Below are positions 18,603-47,752 of a stretch of DNA of 64,000 nt, one piece after another. Positions within the stretch are counted from its first letter, which is position 1. Every line of letters begins with the position of its first letter. The notes below the pieces were generated by a model. That model did not search any database. It was not told the DNA's origin and worked only from the letters and a program-made list of their open reading frames with translations. The stretch is from a phage. Location of the stretch: NCBI GenBank assembly GCA_024613925.1, contig GCA_024613925.1_4713.1; one strand, given 5' to 3'. The translations under genes were made by a program, and so were the position numbers.

Positions 18603-18627
18603 TCACGTAAGTAATATAGCCGTGAAA
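18603..18627 (-). promoter_or_regulatory. conserved promoter-like motif (minus-strand reading TTTCACGGCTATATTACTTACGTGA)
   Basis: One of four near-identical 25-mers; lies 49 nt upstream of start of 17868..18554. Confidence 0.45.
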
Positions 18628-18676
18628 GGATTTGTGTTGGTCCGTTTCGATGCCTATCGTATTTTATGGATTGTCG

Positions 18677-18688
18677 AATGACGTCATT
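18677..18688. promoter_or_regulatory. perfect palindrome AATGACGTCATT in divergent intergenic region
   Basis: Same 12-mer recurs at 47694..47705. Confidence 0.35.
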
Positions 18689-18706
18689 TTAAGGGACATC
18701 CCCGGC

Positions 18707-18740
18707 CTCCTCCCCAGGAAAGGTGTGGGGAGGAGTTTTT
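18707..18740 (+). terminator. hairpin cctcctcccc/ggggaggag followed by TTTTT, upstream of the helicase gene
   Basis: Stem arms 18707..18716 and 18727..18735, T5 at 18736..18740; terminator-like but located 5' of a plus-strand gene (possible attenuator). Confidence 0.35.
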
Positions 18741-18770
18741 ATCATACATTCTATTAAATCGAGCGCGATT

Positions 18771-20852: not shown

Positions 20853-20859
20853 TTAAGAA

Positions 20860-20883
20860 GCTCTGCCTGATGTCAGGCAGAGC
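20860..20883 (+). terminator. hairpin ctctgcctg / caggcagag after helicase gene
   Basis: 9-10-bp stem 8 nt after stop, followed by TTTATG. Confidence 0.5.
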
Positions 20884-20912
20884 TTTATGCTGCGTTCGCT
20901 GCAAAATCGTAT

Positions 20913-20926
20913 GACGTATATACGTC
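20913..20926. promoter_or_regulatory. perfect 14-bp palindrome GACGTATATACGTC upstream of DUF285 gene
   Basis: Read directly; about 30 nt upstream of ATG 20953. Confidence 0.3.
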
Positions 20927-22464: not shown

Positions 22465-22481
22465 GTTTATGTCAATTTAAT

Positions 22482-23779: not shown

Positions 23780-25354
23780 TTACAATTCAAAATCTTCATC
23801 GATAACGCGCTGGGTAAGCACTTTGTCGCTGAAGAACTCCACCTTGCGCTGATGGTATTTACGGTGCGCTTCAATAGAAGTACATACCAGATACCAGAAC
23901 GTTGGTGTCATTCCTTCAAACTTCCCTTTCAGCTGACGCAGTCGCCCCAACACCTGAATGTTACCGGTTCGTGACCCCATCGCTAATGTCATGAACGTCA
24001 TCACCAAGTCAGGAAGGTCGATACCTGTACCTGCCGATTTCACGGTTGTAACGCTGATATCGTTATCCAACAAGACCATGAAATCTTCTTCAGCAGTATA
24101 AGGACCAATCTCTAACTCAGGAATACGTTCACTGAGATAATGCGATAACGACTTACACATATCAACGGTTGCACAATACACCAGCATCTTCATACCTTCC
24201 TGATACTGGTTCATGAAACCTTTGATGATAACCGTATAGATAAAGTTGAAATAGGCGAGTTTGAGTTGCTTGTTCTTCATGATAGACTGTTCGAATATCG
24301 TGTGAGAATAAGAACCCCCAAACCCTTTGTATCTGACTTTATCTGTACTGCGTAGTCGATACGTCACGGCATTTACCGCAATGTATTTCTTGTATTCGCA
24401 TTTCGCATAACGCGCTTCTTTCGGATACATCAAATACAACATCCGCTCGATGAACGGATCGTCAGACACCGCTGTTGCCGACAGATAGATGATTTCCGGA
24501 ATATTTGCATAGCACTTCACTTTGAACAAGAAATGCAAGGCTTCATGGCATTCATCGTGGATCAACAACCCAATACCTGTTTTCTCCCAGAACTCGGCGG
24601 GATGGAAAACATAAGGTGCGACACAATTGTTCTTTTCATAATCGGTTATGTATCTCTGAAACATGTTCAGCGAGAATAACGCAATTTTGAAATCCAGCTC
24701 ACCTTGTTCCACCAACGTCTGGAATTCCAGCATGCTGTAACGAGGAATGTCTGGATGCGGTGGGTCAGATTGGGCTGTACCGCGTATCTCGATAACATCG
24801 CCTGGTTCCATACCGAAGAAACTTAGCAACGAGCTGCGCCATCCAGGCATGTATCTCGGTGACAGAATAATGCCCGTCCGTACACCACGTCGGAAGGTGA
24901 TCTCCTGCGACATGGCTGTTTTACCACTGCCCGTGCCTGCGGTGTTTAGGCTCATTCTGAAGGGGGTATCCTTACCCCCATCCATGTACTCCAACCATTC
25001 TTGCTGATCTTCGCGCCACGGGAACTTCCATTTCTTTACGAACTCCACTTCCTTACCTGGCACCGGATCGTGATAAACGATTTCCAACCACTCTTTTCGG
25101 ATTCCTCGAGAGAAGATAAAATCCAAAAACGATTTCAACTGTTCACGGAGTAAGTATACCTCGCTATAATCGCTTCTTGCCGCGGCATACGTGTTTATGG
25201 TATCGGTAACCATTCTCCGTGTACGAGGGTCACGTCGTTTCCTCAGATGCAAACAACGGTCTCGAAGGTAATGGCCGATAAGATGGGCAAATCGAAGTCC
25301 GTATCCGCTCAGCCTCATGCCATGCGAGAAGACGTCGATACGAGCTAACTTCAT
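23780..25354 (-). CDS. SF2 DExH-box helicase-like protein
   Basis: 524 aa; Walker A GTGSGKT, DExH (LIHDECHE), motif III LSAT. Confidence 0.6.
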   Translation of the reverse strand: MKLARIDVFSHGMRLSGYGLRFAHLIGHYLRDRCLHLRKRRDPRTRRMVTDTINTYAAARSDYSEVYLLREQLKSFLDFIFSRGIRKEWLEIVYHDPVPGKEVEFVKKWKFPWREDQQEWLEYMDGGKDTPFRMSLNTAGTGSGKTAMSQEITFRRGVRTGIILSPRYMPGWRSSLLSFFGMEPGDVIEIRGTAQSDPPHPDIPRYSMLEFQTLVEQGELDFKIALFSLNMFQRYITDYEKNNCVAPYVFHPAEFWEKTGIGLLIHDECHEALHFLFKVKCYANIPEIIYLSATAVSDDPFIERMLYLMYPKEARYAKCEYKKYIAVNAVTYRLRSTDKVRYKGFGGSYSHTIFEQSIMKNKQLKLAYFNFIYTVIIKGFMNQYQEGMKMLVYCATVDMCKSLSHYLSERIPELEIGPYTAEEDFMVLLDNDISVTTVKSAGTGIDLPDLVMTFMTLAMGSRTGNIQVLGRLRQLKGKFEGMTPTFWYLVCTSIEAHRKYHQRKVEFFSDKVLTQRVIDEDFEL

Positions 25355-27357
25355 AACGTGATTACATCCTCCGGTTTAGGTTCTTTACGCGGTAACAGCA
25401 TGTAGTCGATCGGATGATCCGGCTTCATGGTTGGGATATAACTGTTCGGGTTTTGGAACGCATCCAGCTGCTCTTGGTGAGCGAACTTCATACTCAAGGA
25501 GCGCATGTTCATGTTCTTCTTGAAGGTACTGAAGTATCGTGTTGTTCCCTGTTTCGGCATGCGATAATCTTTCGTGTGTGGCGAACGAATCATGCTGGCG
25601 TAGAGAATAACATCGAGATGCGAAAGGTTCATTCGCAGACGCTGGGCACACAGACGATGCCAATAGTACAGCACGTTTGCAACTTCCTCCGGTGTTGCTT
25701 CGTCTTCCGAGAGGAATCCGGCACTGAAAGAACATTTCCCGAATTTGAACTCACGTTCGATTTCTTTTGCGTACTCCATCATGTTTTTGTGGATTAACGG
25801 CATCTGGAATAACGTACGTGAATTGTCCCAGTGTTTCAAGTCGAAAATCACAATCCCGTCAGACGTCACTTCCCAGCTATGGCGTTTGAGGTAACGGATA
25901 AACGCTTTACTCGGTACAACAGGACGACCACAGAAATCGAAATTGACTTTGAGCTTACGATAGCTTTCATCTTTCCTGTCGTAAATCTCCATATCGCAAA
26001 GCGTCATGTTAAACAGACGTTGCGGTATCAGCGAACTGATTTCTTCCGCTTCCGCTACGTCATACAACATGTTCGCAAGACCTAACTTCATCTTAATCAA
26101 CACGTGTTTACCTTTCAGCTCACGTGCGAGTTTGATGTCGTTCATGTTCTGGCTGTAGCGAAGGATATGTTGATATTCCGGTGGGATTGGTGCTGTGGAT
26201 ACCGTTGACGAACCATCGTGATGTTTGGTAGAAAGAATGTTCTGCGTTACCTGTTGCGAACAGGTACGTGCTGCACCATCACCGACATTATCAGTCAATG
26301 CGAAGTTATGACTTAATTCACCGTAACACGTCGTACATACCCCAGCAGGATCGGGATGATGACAATAGTTAACGGAGCGCATGCGTACCGTCGTACCAAT
26401 CAATTCTTTCATGTGTGGCTGTATCGCTACCAACGAACCGTCATCACGAATAATGAATCGACCGTGGAAGCCACGCAGGTCGGTCTCATCACGGATTGGC
26501 ATCGGGATGGTCTCTTTACTACCACAATCACCAGGATGGAGTCGCTGTACAACCGCCGTCGCTATCTGAAGTTCACGACCGAAATATTCAGACTTTTTAA
26601 TCTGCTCTTTGTTGAACAGCAACGATTTCGCCGCAGAACGACTTTCTTTCAAGCTGTCAGGAAGAGAGATCAAACCGGCTGCATACGACCGCATTACCGG
26701 ATCGCGGAATATCTCGGAGTTAATATCGGTCAAGAATCCACGCATCCCAATACACTGCAGCACCTGCCCAATCGAAACGTGTTCGGTTCTTACCGCACGT
26801 GCAATAGGGTTTGCATGTAGCGTTTTATCGGTGCTCAGTACCTTCGTCAGTTTCTTGTATGCGCTTTCAATGCCTTCGCGGGTGGGTTCCGCTTCGGCGA
26901 TGATTTTCTTAACTTCGGGATGTACGGTAATCTGATAAAAATCGTCCGCGCAAATCGTTGTTACGTATTCCTCCAACGCATACGTAAAGAAGTTATATAC
27001 ATTGTTAAACATATCGAACAATGCTTTCCAGAGAACCTCACGATTCTCTTGCGGATAAGCATACATGCATTGACGATACGCGGCGCTTTGCAACGCAACC
27101 GATGAACCCGCTGTGAACTTGCGTTTATCAACCAGGTTCTCTTTTGTCAGTGGGGTCTCAGGATACATGCGATGCACAGACCAGTGCATGTAACTAAAGA
27201 AAATGCGTCGCGCACGCAATTCATGAACGCCATCGTCCATCTCGATATACACACGGTCATTAGGCTGTGCCCACTCGAACACCTCATCAACCGGCCAATG
27301 CATAAGCTCGCGTGCCCTCACACGACGTTTCGTGGTGGTTGTCTGTGTTGTAATCAT
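25351..27357 (-). CDS. RNA polymerase beta-prime, C-terminal fragment
   Basis: 668 aa; MRSVNYCHHPDPAGVCTTCYGELSH resembles E. coli beta-prime VRSVVSCDTDFGVCAHCYG; also DS...SAAK and IGMRGF (cf. DSGARGSAAQ, AGMRGL). Alignment is by eye from memory. Confidence 0.65.
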   Translation of the reverse strand: MITTQTTTTKRRVRARELMHWPVDEVFEWAQPNDRVYIEMDDGVHELRARRIFFSYMHWSVHRMYPETPLTKENLVDKRKFTAGSSVALQSAAYRQCMYAYPQENREVLWKALFDMFNNVYNFFTYALEEYVTTICADDFYQITVHPEVKKIIAEAEPTREGIESAYKKLTKVLSTDKTLHANPIARAVRTEHVSIGQVLQCIGMRGFLTDINSEIFRDPVMRSYAAGLISLPDSLKESRSAAKSLLFNKEQIKKSEYFGRELQIATAVVQRLHPGDCGSKETIPMPIRDETDLRGFHGRFIIRDDGSLVAIQPHMKELIGTTVRMRSVNYCHHPDPAGVCTTCYGELSHNFALTDNVGDGAARTCSQQVTQNILSTKHHDGSSTVSTAPIPPEYQHILRYSQNMNDIKLARELKGKHVLIKMKLGLANMLYDVAEAEEISSLIPQRLFNMTLCDMEIYDRKDESYRKLKVNFDFCGRPVVPSKAFIRYLKRHSWEVTSDGIVIFDLKHWDNSRTLFQMPLIHKNMMEYAKEIEREFKFGKCSFSAGFLSEDEATPEEVANVLYYWHRLCAQRLRMNLSHLDVILYASMIRSPHTKDYRMPKQGTTRYFSTFKKNMNMRSLSMKFAHQEQLDAFQNPNSYIPTMKPDHPIDYMLLPRKEPKPEDVITL

Positions 27358-27502
27358 TATTACTTTCCGATTTAAATGGTTTTATCATACGGTTTACCAA
27401 TTCCGTTGGAATTTACTATCATCATGATAGCATCGGGAATCCCTTCTCTTAGGTTATGTAGGTGTTAATATATCTCCACTACCGGAGTAAAAGTCGGCAA
27501 CA

Positions 27503-28881: not shown

Positions 28882-28960
28882 ACCAGGGATCCTCTTTTAA
28901 GTGTTCACATTCTAGTGTTAAGCAGTTAAAATAAACCGTCCCTTTAATCAGCATAAACAT

Positions 28961-32010: not shown

Positions 32011-32041
32011 CATTTATGCCGTCGTTCGATGACTTAATACA

Positions 32042-34964: not shown

Positions 34965-34965
34965 T

Positions 34966-36552
34966 TTATTTTTTTCCTCTTAAATTTACTACGTGTTCAT
35001 TTAATCGAACAACTAATTGCACAAGCTGCTGACGGATATCTGCTGGACAAAGCATCAATCCCTTACGGTCAGCTGGGACTTTCTCAAGGATTTCCGGGCC
35101 TGCTGCTGAAACATCCCAGTCCCATTCACAAAACGCATCGGCCACCATGTTAATACCGACAACCGGTAAAGTTGTACGTTCATCTTCATACATGGCGTGT
35201 GGATACAATTTATTGACAGTAATGATCTCCTGTGGTTTTAATTGGTGGATAATCTGATAAACATCGTCACGTTTAACCTGGATGCCTACGGTCAGCGCTG
35301 CCAGTTGAGGAAAACCCCAATGGTCTAATAAGCAAGCTGCAATCGCTAACGCTTTTGCCTGATGCACGGCTTCAATCGGTGCCAGACTTCTCGCCGGAAG
35401 ATGGCTATCAAGCAACCATTGTGCCAGTGCTCGGCATCCACGGTTGATTGGTTTTAACTCAACGGTGTCATCATGTTTAGCGTACGTGTATCCGTCGTAA
35501 CGTTTTGCGATACGCGCATACATGTCTTCAACTTTACCGTAAGGTGCTGTTTCGTCGACGTCGTGCAACACACGTTCCATCTGGGTAAGATACGCGATAT
35601 CAAGAATGAGTACACGCGGTGAACGTTTATCTTTCACCATCAACGCATCAATCACGCCTTGACTGTCTTCATCTTGCGCGTTCCCTCGTGGGGTTTTCTC
35701 ACGAATCGGTCCACTGAAACGTCGTTCCGTACAAAGGTTATTCACATAGCTAAAGATCAGTGTTACCAGATGCGTACAACTCACCAACACCCCATCTTTA
35801 ACGACAGGCTGTACGGCTTGGTCCAAGTCGCGTACGGCGAGACGACGGACGATGGCTTGTGAACGCAACCAACCGGGCACTTTCTCCGTCGACATGTAAT
35901 CCACGGTCATCGACAGCGTGATCTTTTTATCACCCGTCTGTGCGCGGATATAATCTTCCAGTCGGTCGTAAGCGGCGATATCATGAATGCGTGTTTTATA
36001 CATCAACGACATAGCCACTTCTTCTTTACGGACTGTCCCGTACGTTTTCCCTGCGTCAATCAGAAACTCTGCCCAAATCGGCACCATCAGACGGACGTAG
36101 ATCGCTAACGCCGTTAACTCAACGTAATCATTTCGTAAATAGGTTTTCTCAGGTATGTCATCCTCACCTAATGTTGTTTTCATGTCCGGTGGTAATTTTA
36201 CCCAACCTGGGGTATTACACAACGCCAGAATCTCTTCATACACAACCGGTTTGTAAATTTCACCAACAGCGCGACTCAACTCCTCCATTTGTTGTTGTGG
36301 AGCAATGTAGTTATCCATCGCTTCACGTGCTTTAACGAACCCTTCGAAGATGTCGTCAATTCGACGTGGGTTCTTTTGTTCTATCCAGGCGAGATACTTG
36401 TTAATCTCCCGCATCTGATTACTAGCCATATCCCCATCGATCTTGATATAACCCTGACCTGAAAATTCCACAGTACGTCCATCACGGTGTTTGATGAGGT
36501 AGTGATCCAGCTTTTCTTTTCCTTGCGTCGTAATGACGGGCACTATGTGCAT
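34966..36552 (-). CDS. hypothetical protein
   Basis: Track ORF reaches 36687; start moved to MHIVPV (36552, AGAGGT 6 nt upstream). Confidence 0.5.
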   Translation of the reverse strand: MHIVPVITTQGKEKLDHYLIKHRDGRTVEFSGQGYIKIDGDMASNQMREINKYLAWIEQKNPRRIDDIFEGFVKAREAMDNYIAPQQQMEELSRAVGEIYKPVVYEEILALCNTPGWVKLPPDMKTTLGEDDIPEKTYLRNDYVELTALAIYVRLMVPIWAEFLIDAGKTYGTVRKEEVAMSLMYKTRIHDIAAYDRLEDYIRAQTGDKKITLSMTVDYMSTEKVPGWLRSQAIVRRLAVRDLDQAVQPVVKDGVLVSCTHLVTLIFSYVNNLCTERRFSGPIREKTPRGNAQDEDSQGVIDALMVKDKRSPRVLILDIAYLTQMERVLHDVDETAPYGKVEDMYARIAKRYDGYTYAKHDDTVELKPINRGCRALAQWLLDSHLPARSLAPIEAVHQAKALAIAACLLDHWGFPQLAALTVGIQVKRDDVYQIIHQLKPQEIITVNKLYPHAMYEDERTTLPVVGINMVADAFCEWDWDVSAAGPEILEKVPADRKGLMLCPADIRQQLVQLVVRLNEHVVNLRGKK

Positions 36553-36601
36553 AACAACCTCTTTTCGCGGTTCCCTGTTAAAACGTCTTCTGTGACGTCT
36601 A

Positions 36602-36626
36602 CCACAAAGGTAATATAAGCGTGAAT
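36602..36626 (-). promoter_or_regulatory. conserved promoter-like motif (variant ...GGTAATATAAGCGTGAAT on plus strand)
   Basis: Fourth copy of the 25-nt motif, 50 nt upstream of the revised start 36552. Confidence 0.4.
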
Positions 36627-36756
36627 AATTTTGGATTCCGGCTGAGTTATCGCTCAGCATGCAAGGCATCCCGCCGAAGCGAGACACCTTGCACTAACGG
36701 AAAATATTCGCGTTACCTTCTGAATCGGAGACTCAGAATGCGATGCTAAAGCATGA

Positions 36757-37545: not shown

Positions 37546-37618
37546 TTTCAGCCTCGTTACGTAGTGTGAATCAATTTCTGGTTCAGATGATAGTCAATAT
37601 TAGTTAAAAATTACAGCC

Positions 37619-38452: not shown

Positions 38453-39578
38453 GCCAAGCAGAAACCTTTAAGGCATCAACGTTCGGGTATTTGTTACGAA
38501 TGCGTTCGACCAACAAACGCTTAACGTTGTCCTTTGTCAAGTCTCCACCTTTCTCGATAACGTTATTGACAAAACTGTTCTTTAATAGCGACTGGTTGTT
38601 CTTGGCGTCCGTTTTAATTGACCAGACAAAACCTGGATACAAAGAAGGGATAGAACGAAACGTTTTCGCCGCATCGTCTTCCTTATCACAGCGTATTCGG
38701 ATATGATCACCCTTCTTCAATGGAGCCAATTCCCGTTCCAACACGCGAATGATTTCATCTCCAACAAGACCATGCAGTTTTATCGTCTTGTAGACATCTG
38801 CTTTCTTGTTTTCAACAAATTCCCACTGGTCGTTAAACGTTTCCGTTAACATATAACGGAGGTATCCCTTCGGACCTTCTTCGCCGTGCGCCAAGCGACC
38901 AAATGAACCGCCAACCATGATACGTCCTTTCTGGGATTGTAAGTGGATATGTCCGCTCACAATCCATCCCTGGGTCTTCTCCACCATTGCGTTATACGCA
39001 TCGCTGCTATGAACACATGTTGCTTTTAACGCTTCTGGTGGAAGTTGATATTCAAACGCACCGTGCATCAGAATAAAGTCCGGCGATCCCTTCTCATCAA
39101 TAAGTCGGTTCACGGCCGACAACGTCACATCCGGGTCGTGGCTGTAGTTATCTGGAAGATAAAGTACTTTTAAACCAAAGTCTTCATCAACCATGCAGAG
39201 GTCATCGTAATAACGAACTTTCGCTCCTATCTCCATGACCTCGTTCTGTTCAACGAACCACTGACTTTGCTTCTGGTCGTGTAAATTGGTACCCTCAAGA
39301 AAGATCAATGTAATATCGTGTTTTCTCGCATACCGTAACAACCAGGTACCCCAGGCACGAACAGCAACCACGTCACTCGTCACAAATGTCGTAATACGAT
39401 CGAAGACATCGCCGCTGAACGTAATCACATCAAGCAGCGCAGGATCTTCTTTTGTAATGTAGTAACGTAGCTGACTAATCAGGTTTACTGTCGGCGTTTG
39501 ACGATGGATAAAGTGAATATCCGACAAGTTGATTCCACGTAATACCCCAGGCGTTTTATTTCGACTGAAGTCTCGCAT
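38436..39578 (-). CDS. Mre11/SbcD-like metallophosphoesterase
   Basis: 380 aa; ordered motifs LSDIHF, FSGDVFDR, GTNLHD, LMHGAFE, SGHIHLQ. Confidence 0.55.
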   Translation of the reverse strand: MRDFSRNKTPGVLRGINLSDIHFIHRQTPTVNLISQLRYYITKEDPALLDVITFSGDVFDRITTFVTSDVVAVRAWGTWLLRYARKHDITLIFLEGTNLHDQKQSQWFVEQNEVMEIGAKVRYYDDLCMVDEDFGLKVLYLPDNYSHDPDVTLSAVNRLIDEKGSPDFILMHGAFEYQLPPEALKATCVHSSDAYNAMVEKTQGWIVSGHIHLQSQKGRIMVGGSFGRLAHGEEGPKGYLRYMLTETFNDQWEFVENKKADVYKTIKLHGLVGDEIIRVLERELAPLKKGDHIRIRCDKEDDAAKTFRSIPSLYPGFVWSIKTDAKNNQSLLKNSFVNNVIEKGGDLTKDNVKRLLVERIRNKYPNVDALKVSAWLDTLP

Positions 39579-40360
39579 CAGAATTCCTCTAAGTTGCTGC
39601 TGCTAATAGTCCCCGTCGTAGACGGCACGTTTCTACTGCTTGCCGACGCTGTTGTTGAAGAAGTTCTGGCCAGATTCAATCCGTTTAATAACCCACGCTC
39701 TTTTACCGTACGACGTGAACCATCACGAACGTCGTAAAGGGGTACGTTATAATGGTCAAAAATCCGAAGCCATTGCACGTAATCAGCGACAACATGGTCT
39801 TTGCTTTCATTCGGGGCAAAGCGATCAAGCTGGTGGTCGACGTAAGCTTTAGCGCTTTCAGGATTGAAGTTATACTGTCGACGTGCTTTGTCCACCATCG
39901 CGAGGAAACATGTATTGGGGTCACGATTGATGTATGAACGCGTCCTGATAAAGATAGCCGGTACCGTAAACAGAACCTTGTTGTTATTCCCATCAGCAAC
40001 AATGTTAACGGCACGATGCGGTTGACCTGCTATCTTGCACCAATCGTGAACAATGGTACTGTTACTCAGCATCTCCGCGTATTCAGGATCCTGCGAAAAC
40101 ATTCCTGCGAACGGATACAAGAAATGTTTAACAAACAGCGATTCAGGCAGAATGTTGGGACGCGTCATCTCCTGTAAACCTTTTCGTAGAAGCTCGCTGT
40201 TGTCTACCAGCTCCTGCCACATATCCGGTCTTGTTTTCGGGATGGACGGGTCCTGAGCACGACGAATGCGTTCTTCTTCATTTACAACCACTACCCCAGC
40301 CGGATACCCCAATAAATCCGTTCCTTCGCTAACGTTGCTGTTAGTTTGGCGCGCCTTCAT
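39578..40360 (-). CDS. hypothetical protein
   Basis: 260-aa ORF. Confidence 0.5.
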   Translation of the reverse strand: MKARQTNSNVSEGTDLLGYPAGVVVVNEEERIRRAQDPSIPKTRPDMWQELVDNSELLRKGLQEMTRPNILPESLFVKHFLYPFAGMFSQDPEYAEMLSNSTIVHDWCKIAGQPHRAVNIVADGNNNKVLFTVPAIFIRTRSYINRDPNTCFLAMVDKARRQYNFNPESAKAYVDHQLDRFAPNESKDHVVADYVQWLRIFDHYNVPLYDVRDGSRRTVKERGLLNGLNLARTSSTTASASSRNVPSTTGTISSSNLEEF

Positions 40361-40748
40361 TTACTTCCTCCTGCCACTTGATAAAATTACCACGCTCGGA
40401 TCGCAGAACACCACCCAGATCGTACGATATACCTTTCTCTGTGACAATCCCACCAATCTGGAGATCGACACGTTCCGTCGTCGGATCGATATACTTGACA
40501 CGGACTTTCAATTCCACGCGATCGTAATAACGCATTAAATAATCATACAGCATCCGGTACGTCGCATCTTCCAATTTGGGTGCGCTATACTGCGATGTTG
40601 CAATGAGGTACGGTAGTGAAACGATAGAGCCTTGATAGCAATACGACTGGGAATAATTCGATATTGCGAAATTGGTCATTAACCCATCCAACTTTTTACC
40701 CGACGCGGTTAAAAAGCTCGACAGCCCAGGTAACGGATTCGATGCCAT
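40341..40748 (-). CDS. hypothetical protein
   Basis: 135-aa ORF. Confidence 0.5.
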   Translation of the reverse strand: MASNPLPGLSSFLTASGKKLDGLMTNFAISNYSQSYCYQGSIVSLPYLIATSQYSAPKLEDATYRMLYDYLMRYYDRVELKVRVKYIDPTTERVDLQIGGIVTEKGISYDLGGVLRSERGNFIKWQEEVNEGAPN

Positions 40749-40761
40749 GAGGAACTCCTCT

Positions 40762-41235
40762 TTAAGCGTAATTCATTCCAACCAATCTATCGTAGTTAGG
40801 CATATGCCCTAACTCCAGTTCGACGGGCATGGATACATTGGTGCGTGGTGCGTAAAATGTTCGCGTATGCATATCGATATACCCACAGTCCAAATAAACA
40901 ATATTGGACAACTCCGCTGGATGTTTAGGTGCGGGAATCTTTAGTCGATTATAACACTCAAGCTGCCACCAGGCATGAAAAAAGTTATTGTAGGCGTACG
41001 ATTTACTGTTGGCAACTTTAAGTCCGTAGATCACCCATAACGCCGCCATGAAGTTGGTTGCGTTAATTCGCATCGGTTGTTCATTATTGAGCATGTACGT
41101 GTAGGTAAACAACGGTGTGTTACCATCACCGAAACGCCCGACTAAGGTATTGTTCGTGTGTTCGACCTCGAAGGAAAAATGCTGGCTGCTATTGCCATCA
41201 AAATGGATCATTCCGTTCTCCTCAAGCTTTTTCAT
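40762..41235 (-). CDS. hypothetical protein
   Basis: Track ORF 40762..41301; start moved to Met23 (MKKLEENG...) because upstream codons are the 41290..41319 hairpin. Confidence 0.5.
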   Translation of the reverse strand: MKKLEENGMIHFDGNSSQHFSFEVEHTNNTLVGRFGDGNTPLFTYTYMLNNEQPMRINATNFMAALWVIYGLKVANSKSYAYNNFFHAWWQLECYNRLKIPAPKHPAELSNIVYLDCGYIDMHTRTFYAPRTNVSMPVELELGHMPNYDRLVGMNYA

Positions 41236-41289
41236 TTCATAGAGTGGTGGAAATTCGTAGAAAGTTACAAAAATAAAAAAGAATGGGCA

Positions 41290-41319
41290 GCCTCTCCCCA
41301 CCCGAAGGTAGGGAGAGGC
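41290..41319 (-). terminator. hairpin gcctctccc / gggagaggc
   Basis: 9-bp stem, 12-nt loop, 12 nt after stop of 41331..41816. Confidence 0.5.
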
Positions 41320-41330
41320 CGCAAATATAT

Positions 41331-41816
41331 TTAAACCAAAGCTGCGATAACGTCGTTAACATTGCGGCCTCGCAACTCTGCCGCTAAACGAATAACTTCA
41401 TCCAGGGAACGGTTTGTACGAATCTTGGCCACTTTCCAATTTTCAGGATACTGTTCGAAGTTAAGCAACCAAGTCATTACCTTTGCTTGTTCCATACCGT
41501 TGAGTTTGATTGTCGTACGCGGATTGGCTTTGAACCACTTCTTGCTCAGCTGTGCCATACGGCGAACAGGGTAAGCGTAAGCGCGAGTCCAGTCTTTAGA
41601 CAGATTGTCGAGTAATTCACAGTAGCTGCTGTCGTAGTCTTTGTTGATACGACGTAATAACCAGTTGGCGGTCATCTGATAAAGTTTATCATCTTCGCGT
41701 AACCGCATACCTGCTACTGCTAAATAAATGATAAGACCTGCGCCCAGGATGAGAGACAGGATAAACAGAATTTGGGTTTCTTGTGCTAAAGTCATTTTAC
41801 TATCCTCGGATTTCAT
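41331..41816 (-). CDS. membrane protein (single N-terminal TM helix)
   Basis: 161 aa; ILFILSLILGAGLIIYLAVAG hydrophobic segment near N-terminus. Confidence 0.5.
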   Translation of the reverse strand: MKSEDSKMTLAQETQILFILSLILGAGLIIYLAVAGMRLREDDKLYQMTANWLLRRINKDYDSSYCELLDNLSKDWTRAYAYPVRRMAQLSKKWFKANPRTTIKLNGMEQAKVMTWLLNFEQYPENWKVAKIRTNRSLDEVIRLAAELRGRNVNDVIAALV

Positions 41817-41880
41817 TAGGATTTAATTTCCAATATAAGGACTATGTGATATGCCTTATACAGTCGATTGATGTTGTACA

Positions 41881-41905
41881 TCACCTAAGTAATATAGCCG
41901 TGAAA
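41881..41905 (-). promoter_or_regulatory. conserved promoter-like motif (minus-strand reading TTTCACGGCTATATTACTTAGGTGA)
   Basis: 65 nt upstream of start of 41331..41816. Confidence 0.45.
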
Positions 41906-41914
41906 AATGTTGGA

Positions 41915-42712
41915 TTAACGTGTTCTCCTATCCCGATGCGTATACGACTGAAGACCGATGTCCATATGCGGTAACGTTAGCGTCTGCCAGATCTGTCGTG
42001 CGTAGCGATCAAGCGTATGATCGTCAGTAACACAATCGACGGGTTCGATGAGGTGAGTCGTATACTGGCTTTTCTCAGAGAAAGGTTCGAGGTTAGCTGT
42101 ATCTCCTAATCCGCTTTTCACCGTGAAGACAAGACGTGTGACTATCATCGCTTTATGTTGCTGTTCATTATAACGAAGGCTGCGGTATACTGCATAGCTC
42201 CCTCCTTTTAAGCTTCGGGTATAACGAAGGTCGGAGGTCGTCTCGGAAATCTGATACAGCATCCAATCCAACGTATCTCGCCAGTACGCATCATCCACAT
42301 CAGGAACCGTAATACCGTACCGCGTAGGCAGCAATTCTAAAAGCAATTTATAAAGTCCGCGACGCAAGCCATGCTCTTCTGTTTCCGACAAGCCGTTTCC
42401 AACGTAACGTGAAATACGTGTACGTAAATACGTACGGATGAACATATTCGCCATCAGTGTTTTCACTCTGCTACTGGTATCCTCAAAGCGATCAACGCTG
42501 AAACTCGTTTCAATCAACCGTCCATTAAAATACAATGCGGCAACATACATCGCGTTATTACTATCACGTTCAATGTTTAAACGGCCGCAGATATTGGCTG
42601 CGTCGTTCATGGTAAATTCTAATTTATCGTGTTCGATACGATAGATAATATCCTCTTGGGTTGCTAGGCTCGCAATGCGACGATAGCCCGGAGAAGTACG
42701 TTTTACACTCAT
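41915..42712 (-). CDS. hypothetical protein
   Basis: Track ORF 41915..42751; start moved to Met14 (GAGGA 5 nt upstream) to clear the hairpin. Confidence 0.5.
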   Translation of the reverse strand: MSVKRTSPGYRRIASLATQEDIIYRIEHDKLEFTMNDAANICGRLNIERDSNNAMYVAALYFNGRLIETSFSVDRFEDTSSRVKTLMANMFIRTYLRTRISRYVGNGLSETEEHGLRRGLYKLLLELLPTRYGITVPDVDDAYWRDTLDWMLYQISETTSDLRYTRSLKGGSYAVYRSLRYNEQQHKAMIVTRLVFTVKSGLGDTANLEPFSEKSQYTTHLIEPVDCVTDDHTLDRYARQIWQTLTLPHMDIGLQSYTHRDRRTR

Positions 42713-42754
42713 GATTGTCCTCGTTTTCAATTTTAAGATTGCATGCGGCATAAA

Positions 42755-42779
42755 CCCTCCCCGCCTTATGCAGGGAGGG
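42755..42779 (-). terminator. hairpin ccctccc / gggaggg
   Basis: 7-bp stem after stop of 42795..43433. Confidence 0.5.
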
Positions 42780-42794
42780 TAGCCATTAAATGGA

Positions 42795-43433
42795 TTAACC
42801 TAATTTACCACCGGCGATATTGGTGAAATCTTCGCCATCAGGAACTTGCAGTAGGATACGTGCCATGTCCCAGTTGGTTAGTGTGATTGCTTTATCATCG
42901 ATACTCAGTTCTGGTAGGTCGAGTTCATGATCATCAAACTCGTAGGAAATACTCCACGTTTCGTCTGTTTTAGGATCGGTTATCAACACACCGTCTGTTA
43001 CACGCATGTAGTCCGGATGCAGTTCATTACTGAACGTGCTGAACGGATCGGTGTAACATTCAGCATACCCCTCGATCTGCTGACGTTGTGCCTTCGTACG
43101 TAATTCAGGGCACGCCATGATCAGTTGTCGAGATATACCGTTTGCCGCACGGAAGTCTTCCACGGTGATACATGGCATAACCACATCGTCATGGAAGATG
43201 TTCTCCGATTGTCTCAACAGCGTCTTACGGAGTTCAGCATAGTTTATCTGATTGAACGCATCGAACGTTGCTAACGATTCAGCGTAAAAATGCTTTACGT
43301 GTTCGCTTGCGCCGCCGAGGCTATTCATCAGCTTGTGGCCGTACTCCATAAAGCTTTTATCGAGACCGGAGGACATTTCTCCGAACCTCAGTGCACGATA
43401 ACTGTCTCGTCCACCTGTAAATATTTGCGCCAT
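42795..43433 (-). CDS. hypothetical protein (possibly a further RNAP beta-prime segment)
   Basis: 212 aa; AAGGAGG 10 nt upstream of its ATG, overlapping the stop of the 43449..43694 exon; homology to beta-prime not demonstrable by eye. Confidence 0.5.
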   Translation of the reverse strand: MAQIFTGGRDSYRALRFGEMSSGLDKSFMEYGHKLMNSLGGASEHVKHFYAESLATFDAFNQINYAELRKTLLRQSENIFHDDVVMPCITVEDFRAANGISRQLIMACPELRTKAQRQQIEGYAECYTDPFSTFSNELHPDYMRVTDGVLITDPKTDETWSISYEFDDHELDLPELSIDDKAITLTNWDMARILLQVPDGEDFTNIAGGKLG

Positions 43434-43448
43434 TACAGGCGTCCTCCT

Positions 43449-43694
43449 TTAGCAATGGTTGTTAGTTGCTTCTATTTCGTCAAGATACGGTTCTACGTCA
43501 TCGCCCTCCACGAATTCGTTGAACCAACAGTCAATGGTAGAAATAACCGGCGACTGGTGTTCACATTTCTTAGATACCTTAAAAGGTACGTTATTATCCA
43601 TCATACCGAGTTCGGGTCGAAAACGCCCGAAATGTTTCGCAGTCCAAATATCTGGGACGATATGGTTGTTCATCGTAGTGTTCAGCATGAGTCG
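43449..43694 (-). CDS. RNA polymerase beta-prime N-fragment, exon 3 (or separately translated 79-aa segment from ATG 43688)
   Basis: Reading from 43694: RLMLNTTMNNHIVPD resembles E. coli beta-prime ARALMMSTNNILSPAN, directly downstream of NADFDGD in the alignment. Begins CGAC after G43695. Confidence 0.5.
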   Translation of the reverse strand, partial: RLMLNTTMNNHIVPDIWTAKHFGRFRPELGMMDNNVPFKVSKKCEHQSPVISTIDCWFNEFVEGDDVEPYLDEIEATNNHC

Positions 43695-44028
43695 CTACCT
43701 CATACCCGCAGCTTTACCTGCAGCTTCCGGTGTTACCGGAATGACCAGAATACATCTTATCCATATTCCAAATGGAACGTAGGACTTCCGCGCTGGATCT
43801 CGCTTGAGACCACGTATTCGTTGAACGTTCTCCTGAACGGAGCTTCGCTGCTGATCGAACATTGTCACGTACGGTAGGCGTCCCCGAAGGGATTGTCATT
43901 GAAGCCGCGTACATCCGCTACCTTGTTTCTACCTTATCGGTTCCTCTTACGAGGCGTAGCGGCCTTAGCCCTTCCCAGCAATTCACGGAATCCAAGCTCT
44001 TCCTTTCGGAAGGCAGGGCCTATGATTA
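43695..44028 (-). ncRNA. group I intron-like core, copy 2
   Basis: Minus-strand P (AATTGCTGGGAAG, 43983..43971), Q (GATCAGCAGC, 43856..43847), R (GTTCAACGAATACG, 43826..43813), S (AAGATGTATTCTGG, 43758..43745). P4 and P7 pairings hold with compensatory changes relative to copy 1. No ORF on coding strand. No IGS identified for its 5' junction. Confidence 0.5.
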
Positions 44029-44041
44029 AGCGTCACCGTCG
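44029..44041 (-). CDS. micro-exon CGACGGTGACGCT encoding the catalytic D-G-D of beta-prime
   Basis: Only GAYGGNGAY in the 725-nt interruption; follows G44042; joins exon 1 (...AAC GCA GAT TT) in frame to give NADFDGDA; CGACGGU is complementary 7/7 to ACCGUCG at 44375..44369 (P10). Confidence 0.55.
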
Positions 44042-44419
44042 CTGTTTATCGACTATATCTTCATCCTCGTTGCGAGGAGTCTCCCGTTTTGGTCTGTGTT
44101 TAACAGAGCCTACTCTACTCGACATCGCGTCTTTCGATAGTCTGTGAGCACACATCTTAACGAACATTCGTGGATTCCTAAACAGGTGAATGTTCTTGTT
44201 GAGATGCTTCGCTGCGGATTATTCCCGTCCTACCTCTTTTACCATATCCAGTTCATTACGCTGGCCCTCATCTGTGTCACCACGATGAGTTGGTGTGTAG
44301 TCCGATTACAGAAACTTCCCGTCAATTAGAGAGTTTTAACTATGTTCCTGTTACCAGAAACCAGATCCCGACGGTATCAATAAATCAACGTAAGTTATTG
44401 AATTTATTGAAAAAAACTG
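44042..44419 (-). ncRNA. group I intron, copy 1
   Basis: Minus-strand P (AATTGACGGGAAG, 44327..44315), Q (AATCCGCAGC, 44220..44211), R (GCTCACAGACTATCG, 44149..44135), S (AAGATATAGTCG, 44061..44050) match the classical consensus elements from memory. IGS GGAUCUG (44368..44362) pairs with exon-1 end CAGAUUU with U-G at the splice site; ends with G44042. Confidence 0.7.
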
Positions 44420-45675
44420 AAATCTGCGTTATAACCTTTGAGGATCATCACGCTTAACCCGATGGTGTTATCCTGCGGATCGCGTTTAACCTTGGTGATT
44501 TCAAGACATTGGTTACTGCTTCGGTCAAGTGATGGGTTTCGAACAAAACCACACACAATCCCATCGAACGGTGTATCAGCAATAAGCTCATCGTGCAGCT
44601 CGCTCATCATCGGATGATAATTACGGACATGTTCCGCAACGAACGCACGTGCTGCTCTCGGTGAATACCCACGATGGAATAGCTTGGATTGGATATGTTC
44701 TTTATTGGTTAAAGTAAATGGTGCGTATGGGAAATGCAGATGATAATAACGATGGTTCGCTGTTATCGAACTGATTACGGTACGCGTGGTGAATGGATGT
44801 AATGTACCTAATATGTTTTTACGTGTGATACCTTTCTTCTTACCGATGAACTCATCGAAAATCGCCGCATGGTATTGCAGCAGCTTCAATTGCACTTTCG
44901 CCATCCAGTTTTCTTTCTTTCTGGCGCTCAAAGGTGTTGTTGGATGATAGATGCTATTCAACGTACCGATAGCATCGATCGCACCTTCCATTTTGCTATC
45001 CGCATAACGACCGGTTGGCGTATTCTCGATAACGAACATCATGGCCGCAGGAAAGCTGATATACTGGCTGAAGAACTTATCACGATGGATACGGATGAAT
45101 TCTCGTAGTGTGTCAACTTTCTCCGTGTTCTTCGGTCCACGTAACGTCGGTCCTTTATACAAGATCTCCATGATGCGATCGAAGTTCTGTATAAAACTAT
45201 TTACGCCACGACGTATCCCGAATACATCGAATTGCTGCTCCAGATAGTTCTTGAGTTCGATGGGTCGTTTTACATTTGGACGGTAACTGGCATCAATGAG
45301 CCACGTCATCGTTTCAAAGCTTTTGATATTCAACTCGCTTGCCAGCACGAGATGGACCAACGGGTTAATGAACGCATCGATTCCTTCAGGAACGCGCGCC
45401 CAAACCGTCGAACGAATCTCTTGTTCTGCTGGGTAGGTTACAACCGTTTTACAGTTTGGACACACCGTGCCGAGCAGCTCACCACGATTGTAGAAACCAC
45501 AACCACATTGTGGTGTGATATCCAACGTATCGCTGGAGTAAACACGGGTGATAAAACTGTTTAATTTCTTCTTCTCTTCGACGACTTTTGTATCGTAATC
45601 GTTCAACAAAATCGGCGTAAAAGGAAGTTCTGCGAGCTGTCTATCGAAACTCACGATATCGAGCATGATGGCCAT
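44420..45675 (-). CDS. RNA polymerase beta-prime N-terminal fragment, exon 1
   Basis: GKKKGITRKNILGTLHPFTTRTVI resembles E. coli [31 protein letters not shown] resembles LNRAPTLHR; unspliced ORF ends ...GYNADF then SFFQ-stop, i.e. inside NADFDGD. N-terminal C-x-C...C-x-x-C zinc motif. AGGAGA upstream of ATG 45675. Confidence 0.7.
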
Positions 45676-45717
45676 GGGGTATCTCCTACAAATGAAAAAG
45701 AACGTTAGGACGTATAA

Positions 45718-45741
45718 GGGAGGGAGGTTGCCCTCCCTCCC
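45718..45741 (-). terminator. hairpin gggagggagg-ttgc-cctccctccc
   Basis: 10-bp perfect stem after stop of 45768..47663. Confidence 0.55.
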
Positions 45742-45767
45742 GTCAGATTACATCGAACGTTCTTCCA

Positions 45768-47663
45768 TTAGAACAGGTTGAATGCCCCACCCATGTTGTT
45801 ACCGCCAACATTCGGACGATCGCTACGTGCGTAGATGTTGCCGGAGATGTTACCCAGACCACGAGCACGTGCTGCCATGTTACCACGAACAGCGGTACCT
45901 GCCAGGTGCTGGATGTTCTCAGGACGGATGGTGAAGCCAGCATCAGCCGCAGCTTCGATCAGCGCCTGCAGTGCTAACGGATCGAAGTCGTAACGCATTG
46001 CCCAGCCGGTTTGTTCCCAGCTACCAGACAGAACACGATCAATGATTTCGTGACGAGCGACAACACGCTGAGACATCGTCATATCGGTACGGTCGAAGCT
46101 GTCTTCCCAAGCTTCTACGGTATCCGGGTTAGTGATGTTCATCATGTACAGATCGTCCATATCACGAATATCGTGACGGTGACCATCCTGGTGGTTGTAG
46201 TAACCCAGCGGGATACGGTTACCGGTAGCGTAGACCAGCGGTTGGCCGTATTGATATTTCTTGCTGAAGCAACCCAGGGTAGTATCATCGAAGGCACGGT
46301 AGAGTGCTTTGTAACCTTCGGAGATTTCTTGAACTTTACCGTCAACGTTGCCCGTAAAGATCTTCTCAGCCGCCGGGATCATACGCAGCAGCCAGCTATA
46401 CTCGCCTTCTTCCGGTACGTCGATAGAAATCAGCAGAGACGGATACAGAACCTGTTGCAGGAACTTGTAAATCTGCTCGTTGGTTTGCGTAGACAGATCC
46501 AGCGGTGCAGTCACTTCAGGATCCAGCACCATCGCCAGAGCACCTGGGTTATGCGGACCAATACCACGAGCCGCGTTGCTGATTAAAGACTGTGCCCATG
46601 CCATGCCGCTGTTCAGCGTAGCGATGGTACCAATCAGACCCAGCACGAAGCTGTTCGGTGTGAACGCATCCAGCTCCAGCGGGTAAACGCTGGTCATCAC
46701 GTAACGCGGCTGGTACTGTACAGTCGGCGGTACCGGATAGCCGTTAACCAGAACAGGGCCTTGGTTGAAGGTCGGGTTCTGCGGGCTGTAGGTCAGGTCA
46801 ATGTAACCGGTGGTGGCGACCAGACGCTGTTGACTATCGTAATCGCTCATCGCTTGACGGATGCGGTTAGAGATAGTTACAGTGATGTCAGAACGCACAG
46901 GGTTACCAACAATATCGCTGTCCTGCATACCGCTGGTGTTGTACTGAACGCTGCTGATTGGCTGATCGCTTGCCATCATGCCCAGGTTGAACTGCGGCAG
47001 ACCCAGTTTATCACCGAGACGGATTTCGATCGCGGTTTGGATTGCGTTATCTGCAGCAGACAGCAGGGTGGTTGCCAGATGCGCAGATTCAGCGGTGATT
47101 TCATTGGTCACCACAGCCAGACCAGCGATACGAACAGTACCGTTAGACTTACCGCCAATAGCTGAATACATTGCCGCCATGACTTCGTTGATGAACGTAC
47201 CGTTCAGGTTATCAACCCAGGTACGCGGTACCAGAATGTTACCATGCGGACCTTGTTCTTCACGACGCGGCAGCGGAGCCAGACCAGCAACCAGCGGCAG
47301 GACGTAACCGAAGAAGTGGTTATGATCACCAACTTTTGCACCGCTCATAACAACCAGGGTCGGATACGGTACGCTGTACTGGTTCGGGTCAACCGCAACA
47401 AAGATGAAGTCGTCTTTGAACTGGGTATCTTCCAGATATTTCTCCATCAGACGACGGAGATTCAGTACCTGCTCGGAGCCGGTATTACGGCTGATACGAC
47501 GGCTCAGTGTACGGTTGATCGTACGCATCGTATGAGTTACTTTAGGACGGTCGGCAAAATCTGCAGCGGTTTCCAGCGCCTCATCAGCACGTTGTGCGGT
47601 GCGGGTTTCAGCTGCACGAATTTCTACATTATCGTTACCGTTATTACGTACGTCTAAGCCCAT
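45768..47663 (-). CDS. abundant structural/shell-type protein; candidate chimallin (phage-nucleus shell), alternatively a virion protein
   Basis: 631 aa; lies immediately upstream of the beta-prime N gene, which I recall is the chimallin/nvRNAP arrangement in phiKZ; own promoter motif and strong hairpin. No sequence-level confirmation possible here. Confidence 0.3.
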   Translation of the reverse strand: MGLDVRNNGNDNVEIRAAETRTAQRADEALETAADFADRPKVTHTMRTINRTLSRRISRNTGSEQVLNLRRLMEKYLEDTQFKDDFIFVAVDPNQYSVPYPTLVVMSGAKVGDHNHFFGYVLPLVAGLAPLPRREEQGPHGNILVPRTWVDNLNGTFINEVMAAMYSAIGGKSNGTVRIAGLAVVTNEITAESAHLATTLLSAADNAIQTAIEIRLGDKLGLPQFNLGMMASDQPISSVQYNTSGMQDSDIVGNPVRSDITVTISNRIRQAMSDYDSQQRLVATTGYIDLTYSPQNPTFNQGPVLVNGYPVPPTVQYQPRYVMTSVYPLELDAFTPNSFVLGLIGTIATLNSGMAWAQSLISNAARGIGPHNPGALAMVLDPEVTAPLDLSTQTNEQIYKFLQQVLYPSLLISIDVPEEGEYSWLLRMIPAAEKIFTGNVDGKVQEISEGYKALYRAFDDTTLGCFSKKYQYGQPLVYATGNRIPLGYYNHQDGHRHDIRDMDDLYMMNITNPDTVEAWEDSFDRTDMTMSQRVVARHEIIDRVLSGSWEQTGWAMRYDFDPLALQALIEAAADAGFTIRPENIQHLAGTAVRGNMAARARGLGNISGNIYARSDRPNVGGNNMGGAFNLF

Positions 47664-47693
47664 TTGGGATTCCTCTTTTCTTAAACTTTATTA

Positions 47694-47705
47694 AATGACG
47701 TCATT
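47694..47705. promoter_or_regulatory. perfect palindrome AATGACGTCATT
   Basis: Second copy (first at 18677..18688); about 30 nt upstream of ATG 47663 on minus strand. Confidence 0.35.
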
Positions 47706-47727
47706 GAATCAGCTTCTACTCGCTCAT

Positions 47728-47752
47728 TCACCTAGGTAATATAACCCTGAAA
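47728..47752 (-). promoter_or_regulatory. conserved promoter-like motif (minus-strand reading TTTCAGGGTTATATTACCTAGGTGA)
   Basis: 65 nt upstream of start of 45768..47663. Confidence 0.45.

What the first reader, a model, noticed from the sequence alone, without database searches (positions are those of the whole stretch)
18603..47752. Conserved 25-nt promoter-like motif upstream of four minus-strand genes
Plus-strand TCAC(C/G)TA(A/G)GTAATATA(G/A)CC(G/C)TGAAA occurs at 18603..18627, 41881..41905 and 47728..47752, with a variant at 36602..36626, each 49-65 nt upstream of a minus-strand start codon (HD-domain gene, membrane-protein gene, chimallin candidate, 34966..36552). On the transcribed strand it reads TTTCACGGCTATATTACTTAGGTGA with a TATATTAC core. 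This looks like a phage-RNAP-specific promoter class rather than a sigma-70 promoter. A shorter TTTATTAC lies about 20 nt upstream of the plus-strand ATGs at 47918 and 62518.
Basis: seen in the sequence. Interest (0 to 1): 0.6.

Follow-up and report, generated by a model that had tools for sequence, protein, structure and literature searches.

The report
Jumbo-phage early promoters (phiKZ type)
The repeated 25-base motif is real and is the already known "early promoter" that phiKZ-like nucleus-forming jumbo phages use with the RNA polymerase they carry in the virion; here it is seen in a close relative of E. coli phage Goslar, so it is a useful annotation but not a new kind of element.

Summary
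The degenerate 25-mer occurs three times (0 expected) and the variant at 36602-36626 is real. The core TATATTAC occurs four times, always on the minus strand, in non-coding DNA, 49-65 nt before a minus-strand start codon. I found a fifth site, a TACATTAC variant at 62437-62451.

The window is about 96-97% identical to Escherichia phage Goslar (Chimalliviridae). In Goslar's 237 kb, TAYATWAC-N5-TG occurs 13 times, all on the minus strand. Twelve of the 13 lie in the 7% of the genome that is non-coding.

The motif matches published early-promoter consensuses of phiKZ-like phages:
- phiKZ: TATATTAC
- 201phi2-1: ...TTTRARR_BTATATTACDWHDGTG
- N1M2: ...TTTCARRYAKATATTATYWAAGTGWA

The same element lies upstream of the chimallin gene in phiKZ, RAY and Eowyn. 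A weight matrix trained only on phiKZ sites ranks the window's chimallin promoter first of 128,000 positions.

Sigma-70 and hairpin readings are not supported. The short plus-strand TTTATTAC is mostly inside genes, and the 47893 copy is not conserved in eight related genomes.

Verdict: virion-RNA-polymerase early promoters, with start sites predicted at the conserved G 6 nt after the core. This is a new member of a known kind, and interest is low.

The parts
18603..18648 (-). Early-promoter site 1, upstream of the HD-domain gene (17868-18554, Goslar gp159 homologue). Core TATATTAC is at 18611-18618. The predicted start is the G at 18604, giving a 50-nt leader.
   Evidence: The motif is identical in Goslar, while the leader just downstream differs by 5 substitutions and an 8-nt indel.
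36602..36647 (-). Early-promoter site 2, the variant (TTCACGCTTATATTACCTTTGTGG), upstream of 34966-36552 (Goslar gp175 homologue). Core is at 36610-36617. The predicted start is the G at 36603, giving a 51-nt leader.
   Evidence: A 14-bp hairpin with a TTCG loop (36661-36692, minus strand) lies just upstream, read directly from the sequence. This gives a terminator-then-promoter layout.
41881..41926 (-). Early-promoter site 3, upstream of the small membrane-protein gene (41331-41816, or 41331-41795 by the Goslar gp182 annotation). Core is at 41889-41896. The predicted start is the G at 41882.
   Evidence: Among four genome variants, the only changes inside the motif fall in the degenerate N5 spacer.
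47728..47773 (-). Early-promoter site 4, upstream of the chimallin (ChmA) gene 45768-47663, which is followed by an nvRNAP subunit gene. Core is at 47736-47743. The predicted start is the G at 47729, giving a 66-nt leader. It carries an A-tract upstream element (TTGAAAAAAATTTCAGGGT).
   Evidence: All 46 motif columns are invariant in nine Goslar-like genomes. It is the top hit of a phiKZ-trained matrix. The orthologous element is present in phiKZ, RAY and Eowyn.
62436..62481 (-). Early-promoter-type site 5, not in the original finding. It is a TACATTAC variant upstream of 61861-62412/62385 (Goslar gp225 homologue). Core is at 62444-62451. The predicted start is the G at 62437.
   Evidence: It is identical in Goslar at 187625-187639. 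Four further TACATTAC-core sites with fuller flanks exist elsewhere in Goslar. This is the weakest of the five: it scored below threshold with the full-length matrix.

Best explanation
These are early promoters of a Goslar-like nucleus-forming jumbo phage (Chimalliviridae). [quoted passage not shown]

Each site has four parts on the transcribed (minus) strand:
- an upstream A/T-rich element at about -35 to -20;
- TTTCA(C/G)G at about -22 to -16;
- the near-invariant core TA(T/C)ATTAC at -14 to -7;
- an invariant T-G, where the G, 6 nt after the core, is the predicted first transcribed base.

Transcription from these sites would start immediately after injection, without host RNA polymerase or new protein synthesis. 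It would drive minus-strand operons that begin with the HD-domain gene, the gp175 homologue, a small membrane protein, chimallin plus an nvRNAP subunit, and the gp225 homologue.

Shown here: the motif, its statistics, its placement, its conservation, and its identity with the published phiKZ-family consensus. Inferred: the start-site position, early timing, and which polymerase reads it.
For: Enrichment and placement.
- The 25-mer has 3 hits against 0 expected.
- TAYATWAC-N5-TG has 5 hits in the window against 0.67 expected. All are on the minus strand and all are non-coding.
- In Goslar it has 13 hits, all on the minus strand. Twelve of 13 lie in the 7.06% of the genome that is non-coding. 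Each is 25-152 nt upstream of a co-directional gene.
- A matrix scan separates the sites cleanly: 12 sites score at least 29 bits and nothing falls between 12 and 29 bits.

Identity with the known family.
- PMC7058600 Table 2 lists phiKZ TATATTAC, 201phi2-1 ...TTTRARR_BTATATTACDWHDGTG and N1M2 ...TTTCARRYAKATATTATYWAAGTGWA.
- AR9 early promoters read AAATATATATTAT-(6N)-G+1, and phiKZ and phiR1-37 have a conserved start site 6 nt after the element (PMC5312081).
- phiKZ itself has 23 TATATTAC-N5-TG sites on its plus strand and none on its minus strand.

Orthologous position.
- The element precedes the chimallin gene in phiKZ (tgaaaaaaatttgagattTATATTACtaaattG), RAY and Eowyn.
- PHIKZ054 has a mapped primary start site with the early motif (PMC8244752).

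Independent model. A matrix built only from phiKZ sites ranks the window's chimallin promoter 1st, and sites 3 and 2 as 2nd and 3rd, of 128,000 positions. A flanks-only version ranks the chimallin promoter 2nd.

Selection.
- 0 of 46 motif columns vary in nine Goslar-like genomes, against 57 of 270 flank columns.
- Over the five sites, 3 of 230 motif columns vary against 29 of 647 flank columns, Fisher p = 0.025.

Polymerase. Goslar packages a vRNAP (gp196) that co-localises with injected DNA and expresses the early programme (PMC10541120).
Against: - No 5'-end or timing data for this phage or for Goslar were available. The Goslar RNA-seq paper does not mention promoters and its supplements are not held.
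- Thirteen sites is fewer than phiKZ's 28-32. About 175 Goslar genes are reported as expressed at 5 min, so long read-through operons or further unrecognised promoters must exist.
- The vRNAP genes lie outside this window.
- Site 5 and the four TACATTAC-core sites elsewhere in Goslar deviate from the core, and may be weak or may belong to another temporal class.
- In 201phi2-1, not every motif-bearing site could be linked to the expected genes.
Confidence: 0.9

Rival explanations
1. Host sigma-70 promoters. TATATT would act as a -10 box, and E. coli RNA polymerase would transcribe the phage's first genes.
For: TATATT matches TATAAT at 5 of 6 positions, and the sites are non-coding and correctly oriented.
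Against: - The sigma-70 consensus scan flags none of the five sites. Sigma-70-like sites in 36000-48500 are fewer than in shuffles, 12 against 19.9.
- The invariant positions (the C ending TATATTAC, the T-G 5-6 nt later, and TTTCA at about -20) are not sigma-70 determinants.
- The same motif is kept in phages of Pseudomonas, Erwinia and Klebsiella.
- phiKZ-family infection is resistant to rifampicin, an inhibitor of host RNA polymerase (PMC4666361 abstract; PMC13282480).
Confidence: 0.03
2. Promoters of the non-virion polymerase (middle class), or dual-use promoters, rather than vRNAP early promoters.
For: PHIKZ054 carries both an early and a middle promoter. The TACATTAC variants might form a separate temporal class.
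Against: - Published phiKZ middle promoters are described by a TACT motif at about -22 after an A-rich run. Late promoters are described by TATG at the start site.
- Neither describes these sites, whereas the early consensus fits base for base.
Confidence: 0.04
3. Operator for a dimeric phage DNA-binding protein that uses the partial palindrome TCAC-N15-GTGA. The motif would be a regulator site and not the polymerase recognition element.
For: TTCAC and GTGAA are reverse complements in several copies.
Against: - Where the left arm changes (TTCAG, TTGAG, AACAG), the right arm does not change to match.
- The most conserved part is the asymmetric core TATATTAC.
- The same layout in AR9, phiKZ and phiR1-37 has a conserved start site 6 nt after the element.
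Confidence: 0.02
4. N4-style hairpin promoter, or another single-strand structure formed by the inverted repeat.
For: One copy (18603) folds at -3.2 kcal/mol with z = -2.5.
Against: - The other four copies fold at 0 to -1.7 kcal/mol and are not better than shuffles.
- 69% of cells pair, against 65.7% in shuffles (52 of 500 shuffles as high).
- Covariation score is 0.136 against 0.103 in shuffles (28 of 500 as high), and is exceeded when the partner is slid by +2.
Confidence: 0.01

Closest known systems
phiKZ early (vRNAP) promoters (Ceyssens 2014, as cited in PMC8244752, PMC7598289 and PMC7058600)
   Same: - Same core, TATATTAC, and the same T-G 5-6 nt after it.
- A/T-rich -20/-30 elements.
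- Non-coding and co-directional with the downstream gene, on the majority coding strand only.
- Present in front of the chimallin gene.
- Two upstream-element flavours are visible in both genomes.
   Different: - The Goslar-like -22 to -15 block is G/C-containing (TTTCACGGC, against phiKZ TTTAAACAG).
- There are fewer sites: 13 in 237 kb, against 23 by the same pattern in 280 kb.
- A TACATTAC sub-variant is used.
- No experimental start sites exist for the Goslar lineage.
Predicted early promoters of Klebsiella phage N1M2, Pseudomonas phage OBP and 201phi2-1 (PMC7058600 Table 2; PMC11512511)
   Different: - N1M2 and OBP end the core in T (TATATTAT), whereas the Goslar-like sites, phiKZ and 201phi2-1 end it in C.
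- N1M2 and OBP were called chimallin-less or distant in some studies; that was not tested here.
AR9 early promoters, AAATATATATTAT-(6N)-G+1 (PMC5312081)
   Same: The same TATATTA core, followed by 6 nt and then a G start. They are read by an injected multisubunit vRNAP and are insensitive to chloramphenicol.
   Different: AR9 has a uracil-containing genome, a Gram-positive host, a longer AT run, and no TTTCA or GTGA flanks.

Membership tests
phiKZ-type vRNAP early promoter | Highly conserved A/T-rich element of about 8-10 nt (TATATTAC/T), centred near -10 | tested here: met
   The core is invariant at 4 window sites and 8 Goslar sites. A TACATTAC variant occurs at 1 window site and 5 Goslar sites.
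phiKZ-type vRNAP early promoter | Conserved start nucleotide 6 nt downstream of the element | tested here: inconclusive
   The sequence signature is met: T-G is invariant at positions +6/+7 after the core in all 5 window sites, all 13 Goslar sites and 23 phiKZ sites. The start site itself was not measured.
phiKZ-type vRNAP early promoter | Conserved upstream -20/-30 elements (T-rich or A-rich; TTTCA/TTTAA) | tested here: met
   Alignment A1, matrix information content, and a flanks-only phiKZ matrix that ranks the chimallin site 2nd of 128,000 positions.
phiKZ-type vRNAP early promoter | Located in non-coding DNA at the head of operons, co-directional with the downstream genes | tested here: met
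   5 of 5 window sites and 12 of 13 Goslar sites are non-coding, against a 7.06% non-coding background. All are co-directional.
phiKZ-type vRNAP early promoter | Present at orthologous early genes in related phages (for example chimallin / PHIKZ054) | tested here: met
   Found in phiKZ, RAY and Eowyn. The mapped PHIKZ054 early start site is reported in PMC8244752.
phiKZ-type vRNAP early promoter | The genome encodes a virion-packaged multisubunit RNA polymerase | tested here: met
   Goslar's annotation carries split RNAP beta-type genes gp196, gp205 and gp207 next to homologues of phiKZ virion genes. GFP-tagged gp196 is packaged and injected (PMC10541120). These genes lie outside the window.
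phiKZ-type vRNAP early promoter | Transcripts appear within minutes and are independent of host RNA polymerase and of new protein synthesis | not testable with these tools
   This needs RNA 5'-end mapping with rifampicin or chloramphenicol. The supplements of the Goslar RNA-seq paper are not held.
Sigma-70 promoter | A -35 hexamer like TTGACA, 16-18 nt upstream of a -10 hexamer like TATAAT | tested here: not met
   No motif site passes the scan.
N4 vRNAP hairpin promoter | Stable short-loop DNA hairpin with a conserved stem | tested here: not met
   weak folds, a 13-nt loop, and no covariation.

The most novel reading that the evidence does not exclude
The early promoters fall into two upstream-element sub-classes that are shared between two distant genera.
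- Type A reads TCCAACATTTTTCACGGC in Goslar-like phages and TTCAAACATATTTAAACAG in phiKZ.
- Type B has an A-tract: TTGAAAAAAATTTCAGGGT in Goslar-like phages and ATGAAAAAAATTTGAGATT in phiKZ.

The chimallin promoter is type B in Goslar-like phages, phiKZ and RAY. If the split is functional (different strength, timing, or a co-injected specificity factor), it would point to two-tier control inside the 'early' class during the vesicle stage.

This rests only on inspection. I could not check whether it has already been described.
Probability: 0.3. Interest if true: 0.35.

Novelty: new member of a known kind. Interest (0 to 1): 0.17.

Why it matters
- The sites give a ready map of vRNAP start points for Goslar, the E. 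coli model for nucleus-forming phages: 5 in this window and 13 in Goslar.
- That map helps define early operons, including chimallin plus an nvRNAP subunit.
- It also helps in designing early-expression cassettes for phage engineering, and in reading existing Goslar RNA-seq data.
- It adds no new mechanism. The element type and its core sequence have been described for phiKZ and its relatives since at least 2014.

Tried and rejected
- Sigma-70 reading: no site passes the consensus scan.
- Hairpin or cruciform reading of TCAC...GTGA: pairing and covariation are no better than controls, and folds are weak.
- TTTATTAC as a plus-strand promoter class:
  - 8 copies in the window, 5 of them inside genes.
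  - It fails the matrix scan.
  - The 47893 copy is absent from eight related genomes.
- A weak look-alike at 27444-27490 (TACATAAC, no T-G, 15 bits), upstream of an RNAP beta gene. It is not counted, because the Goslar copy scores below threshold.
- Exact 16-mer scan of IMG/VR. Besides Goslar-like contigs it hit four unrelated contigs, which by a rough estimate is what chance would give. Only one of them even had the N5-TG tail.
- Searches for intermediate relatives for footprinting. Only genomes with 94-100% ChmA identity exist in the viral and metagenome collections, and the next chimallins are below 25% identical.
- Experimental Goslar or phiKZ start-site tables: no supplements are held, and Ceyssens 2014 is not held.
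- Literature search for a Goslar-specific promoter description: none found in the held library.
Full report
**What the window is**

The chimallin region (45768-47960) is 96.9% identical to Escherichia phage vB_EcoM_Goslar. The whole window aligns to Goslar 124248-189188 at 91-96% identity, with a few indels. The 631-aa product of 45768-47663 matches Pfam Chimallin_Phikzvirus, and 17868-18554 carries an HD domain. Goslar is a nucleus-forming jumbo phage (Chimalliviridae). Its lineage is isolated: other chimallins in the phage collection are below 25% identical. The viral and metagenome collections hold only genomes with 94-100% ChmA identity.

**The observation**

- The degenerate 25-mer matches at 18603-18627, 41881-41905 and 47728-47752, with none expected.
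- The variant at 36602-36626 is there.
- The core TATATTAC occurs exactly four times, all on the minus strand. The 8-mer alone is not above chance (2.6 expected); the extended motif is.
- TAYATWAC-N5-TG gives five hits against 0.67 expected, and no shuffle reached five.
It lies in the non-coding gap upstream of the minus-strand gene 61861-62412.
- The stated distances to start codons (49-65 nt) are correct.

**Genome-wide behaviour in Goslar**

I rebuilt the 237,307-bp Goslar genome from the RefSeq record.

- TAYATWAC-N5-TG occurs 13 times, all on the minus strand.
- Twelve of the 13 lie in the 7.06% of the genome that is non-coding. The thirteenth lies in the first 55 nt of a 62-aa hypothetical ORF.
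- Each sits 25-152 nt upstream of a co-directional gene.
- A matrix built from the eight TATATTAC sites gives 12 sites at 29-59 bits and nothing between 12 and 29 bits. The class is therefore discrete.
- Two bare TATATTAC 8-mers inside genes lack every flank.
- The refutation condition 'scattered inside coding regions' is not met.

**Anatomy on the transcribed strand** (alignment A1)

- An A/T-rich upstream element.
- TTTCA(C/G)G.
- The core TA(T/C)ATTAC.
- Five variable bases.
- An invariant T-G, usually followed by A.

**What it is**

Three published sources describe this family.

- A review of jumbo-phage RNA polymerases states that a conserved motif can be found bioinformatically upstream of early operons in every RNAP-encoding jumbo phage. 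It is an A/T-rich element of about 10 nt centred near -10, and it was confirmed as the early promoter wherever transcripts were mapped (PMC7598289).
- The AR9 study gives AAATATATATTAT-(6N)-G+1. It notes that phiKZ and phiR1-37 have a conserved start 6 nt after the element (PMC5312081).
- Table 2 of PMC7058600 lists the following:
  - phiKZ: TATATTAC
  - 201phi2-1: TTAWTAVAA_HYWTTTRARR_BTATATTACDWHDGTG
  - N1M2: TBYAWWWWWTTTCARRYAKATATTATYWAAGTGWA
  - OBP: a near-identical string
  - EL: WTTTYAAACCTACATTATY

The EL consensus contains a TACATTA core like the variant found here.

**Direct checks**

- The element precedes the chimallin gene in three other genera:
  - phiKZ: tgaaaaaaatttgagattTATATTACtaaattG
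  - RAY: ttcaaaaaaattacaagtcTATATTACgtatgtG
  - Eowyn: cgTATATTACttaggtGa
- PHIKZ054 has a mapped primary start site with the early motif (PMC8244752).
- In the full phiKZ genome, TATATTAC-N5-TG occurs 23 times on the plus strand and never on the minus strand. Publications report 28-32 early promoters.
- A matrix trained only on those 23 phiKZ sites ranks the window's chimallin promoter first of 128,000 positions (29.5 bits, against a background mean of -50.5 and sd of 12.1). Sites 3 and 2 rank second and third, and site 1 ranks sixth.
- With the core and T-G columns zeroed, the chimallin promoter still ranks second.

**Conservation**

- In nine distinct Goslar-like genomes, all 46 columns of the chimallin promoter are invariant, against 57 variable columns of 270 in the flanks.
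- Over the five window sites compared with Goslar and IMG/VR relatives, 3 of 230 motif columns vary against 29 of 647 flank columns (Fisher p = 0.025).
- Two of the three variable motif columns fall in the degenerate spacer.
- The leader just after site 1 differs by five substitutions and an 8-nt indel, while the motif is intact.

**Mechanism**

This part is inferred from the family.

- The virion-packaged multisubunit polymerase is injected with the DNA. Goslar gp196 is a packaged subunit that co-localises with injected DNA in the early vesicle (PMC10541120).
- It would recognise these sites and start at the conserved G: window 18604, 36603, 41882, 47729 and 62437.
- The resulting leaders are 25-87 nt and carry the ribosome-binding sites.
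- The chimallin promoter would also drive the nvRNAP subunit gene just downstream (44404-45675). This mirrors PHIKZ054-055.
- How vRNAP reads the DNA is not known for any member of the family.

**Rivals**

- Sigma-70: none of the five sites passes the consensus scan, and sigma-70-like sites are fewer than in shuffles.
- Hairpin or operator: TCAC...GTGA is a partial palindrome.
  - The right arm does not follow changes in the left arm.
  - Pairing is 69%, against 65.7% in shuffles.
  - Covariation is matched by a slid control.
  - Folds are 0 to -3.2 kcal/mol.
- Middle or late nvRNAP promoters are described by other motifs: TACT at -22, and TATG at +1.

**The TTTATTAC addendum**

- The 8-mer occurs eight times, five of them inside genes.
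- It lacks the T-G and scores below threshold.
- The copy at 47893-47900 reads TTTACTAC, TTTACCAT or TTTACTAT in the other eight Goslar-like genomes.
- It is not supported as a promoter signal.

**Novelty**

The element type, its core and its flanks are published for phiKZ-like phages. I found no paper in the held library that lists it for Goslar. The Goslar RNA-seq paper does not use the word promoter. I therefore file it as a new member of a known kind, with low interest.

The most novel reading left open is that two upstream-element sub-types (CAAACAT-type and A-tract-type) are shared by Goslar-like phages and phiKZ, with chimallin on the A-tract type in three genera. This rests on inspection only.

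Noticed in passing
window plus strand 20884-20890, 22466-22472, 32013-32019; minus strand 55346-55352, 51297-51303, 42748-42754, 28951-28957, 9013-9019: G/C-rich hairpins in non-coding DNA are followed at once by TTTATGC(C/T)G. TTTATGC is found in 13 of 123 Goslar upstream regions against 1.2 expected. The string tttatg also lies about 25 nt before several phiKZ early promoters. This is probably the conserved jumbo-phage terminator tail. It contains TATG, the phiKZ late-promoter consensus, so it could in principle also serve as a late start.
   Followed up: partly
window 44042-44367 (-): A group I intron lies in the nvRNAP subunit gene just downstream of chimallin (RF00028, full model length, 44.6 bits, which is below the gathering score of 50; E = 9e-10). 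Next to it Goslar carries a 1,065-nt insertion with an HNH endonuclease (gp186, 168217-169281) that this phage lacks.
   Followed up: partly
window 36661-36692 (-): A 14-bp hairpin with a TTCG loop lies directly after the gp176 homologue and about 15 nt before the upstream edge of promoter site 2 (36647). This gives a terminator-then-promoter arrangement. It was read from the sequence and was not listed by the terminator scan, because it has no T-run.
   Followed up: no
window 27444-27490 (-): A weak look-alike (TACATAAC, no T-G, 15 bits) lies in the gap upstream of the RNAP beta-type gene 25351-27357. The Goslar copy scores below threshold. It is probably not a site.
   Followed up: partly
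window 7352-7629, 10303-10307, 11358-12071: These are the places where the window and Goslar do not align. One is a replaced segment. One is a 292-nt stretch, overlapping the plus-strand gene gp145, that is present only in Goslar. One is a divergent block inside the exoribonuclease gene.
   Followed up: no
window 47728-47773, compared with phiKZ 45538-45582 and RAY L012 about 596-640: The chimallin promoters of three genera share an A-tract upstream element (GAAAAAAATTT). Other early promoters in Goslar-like phages and in phiKZ share a CAAACAT-type element. This suggests two conserved sub-types.
   Followed up: partly
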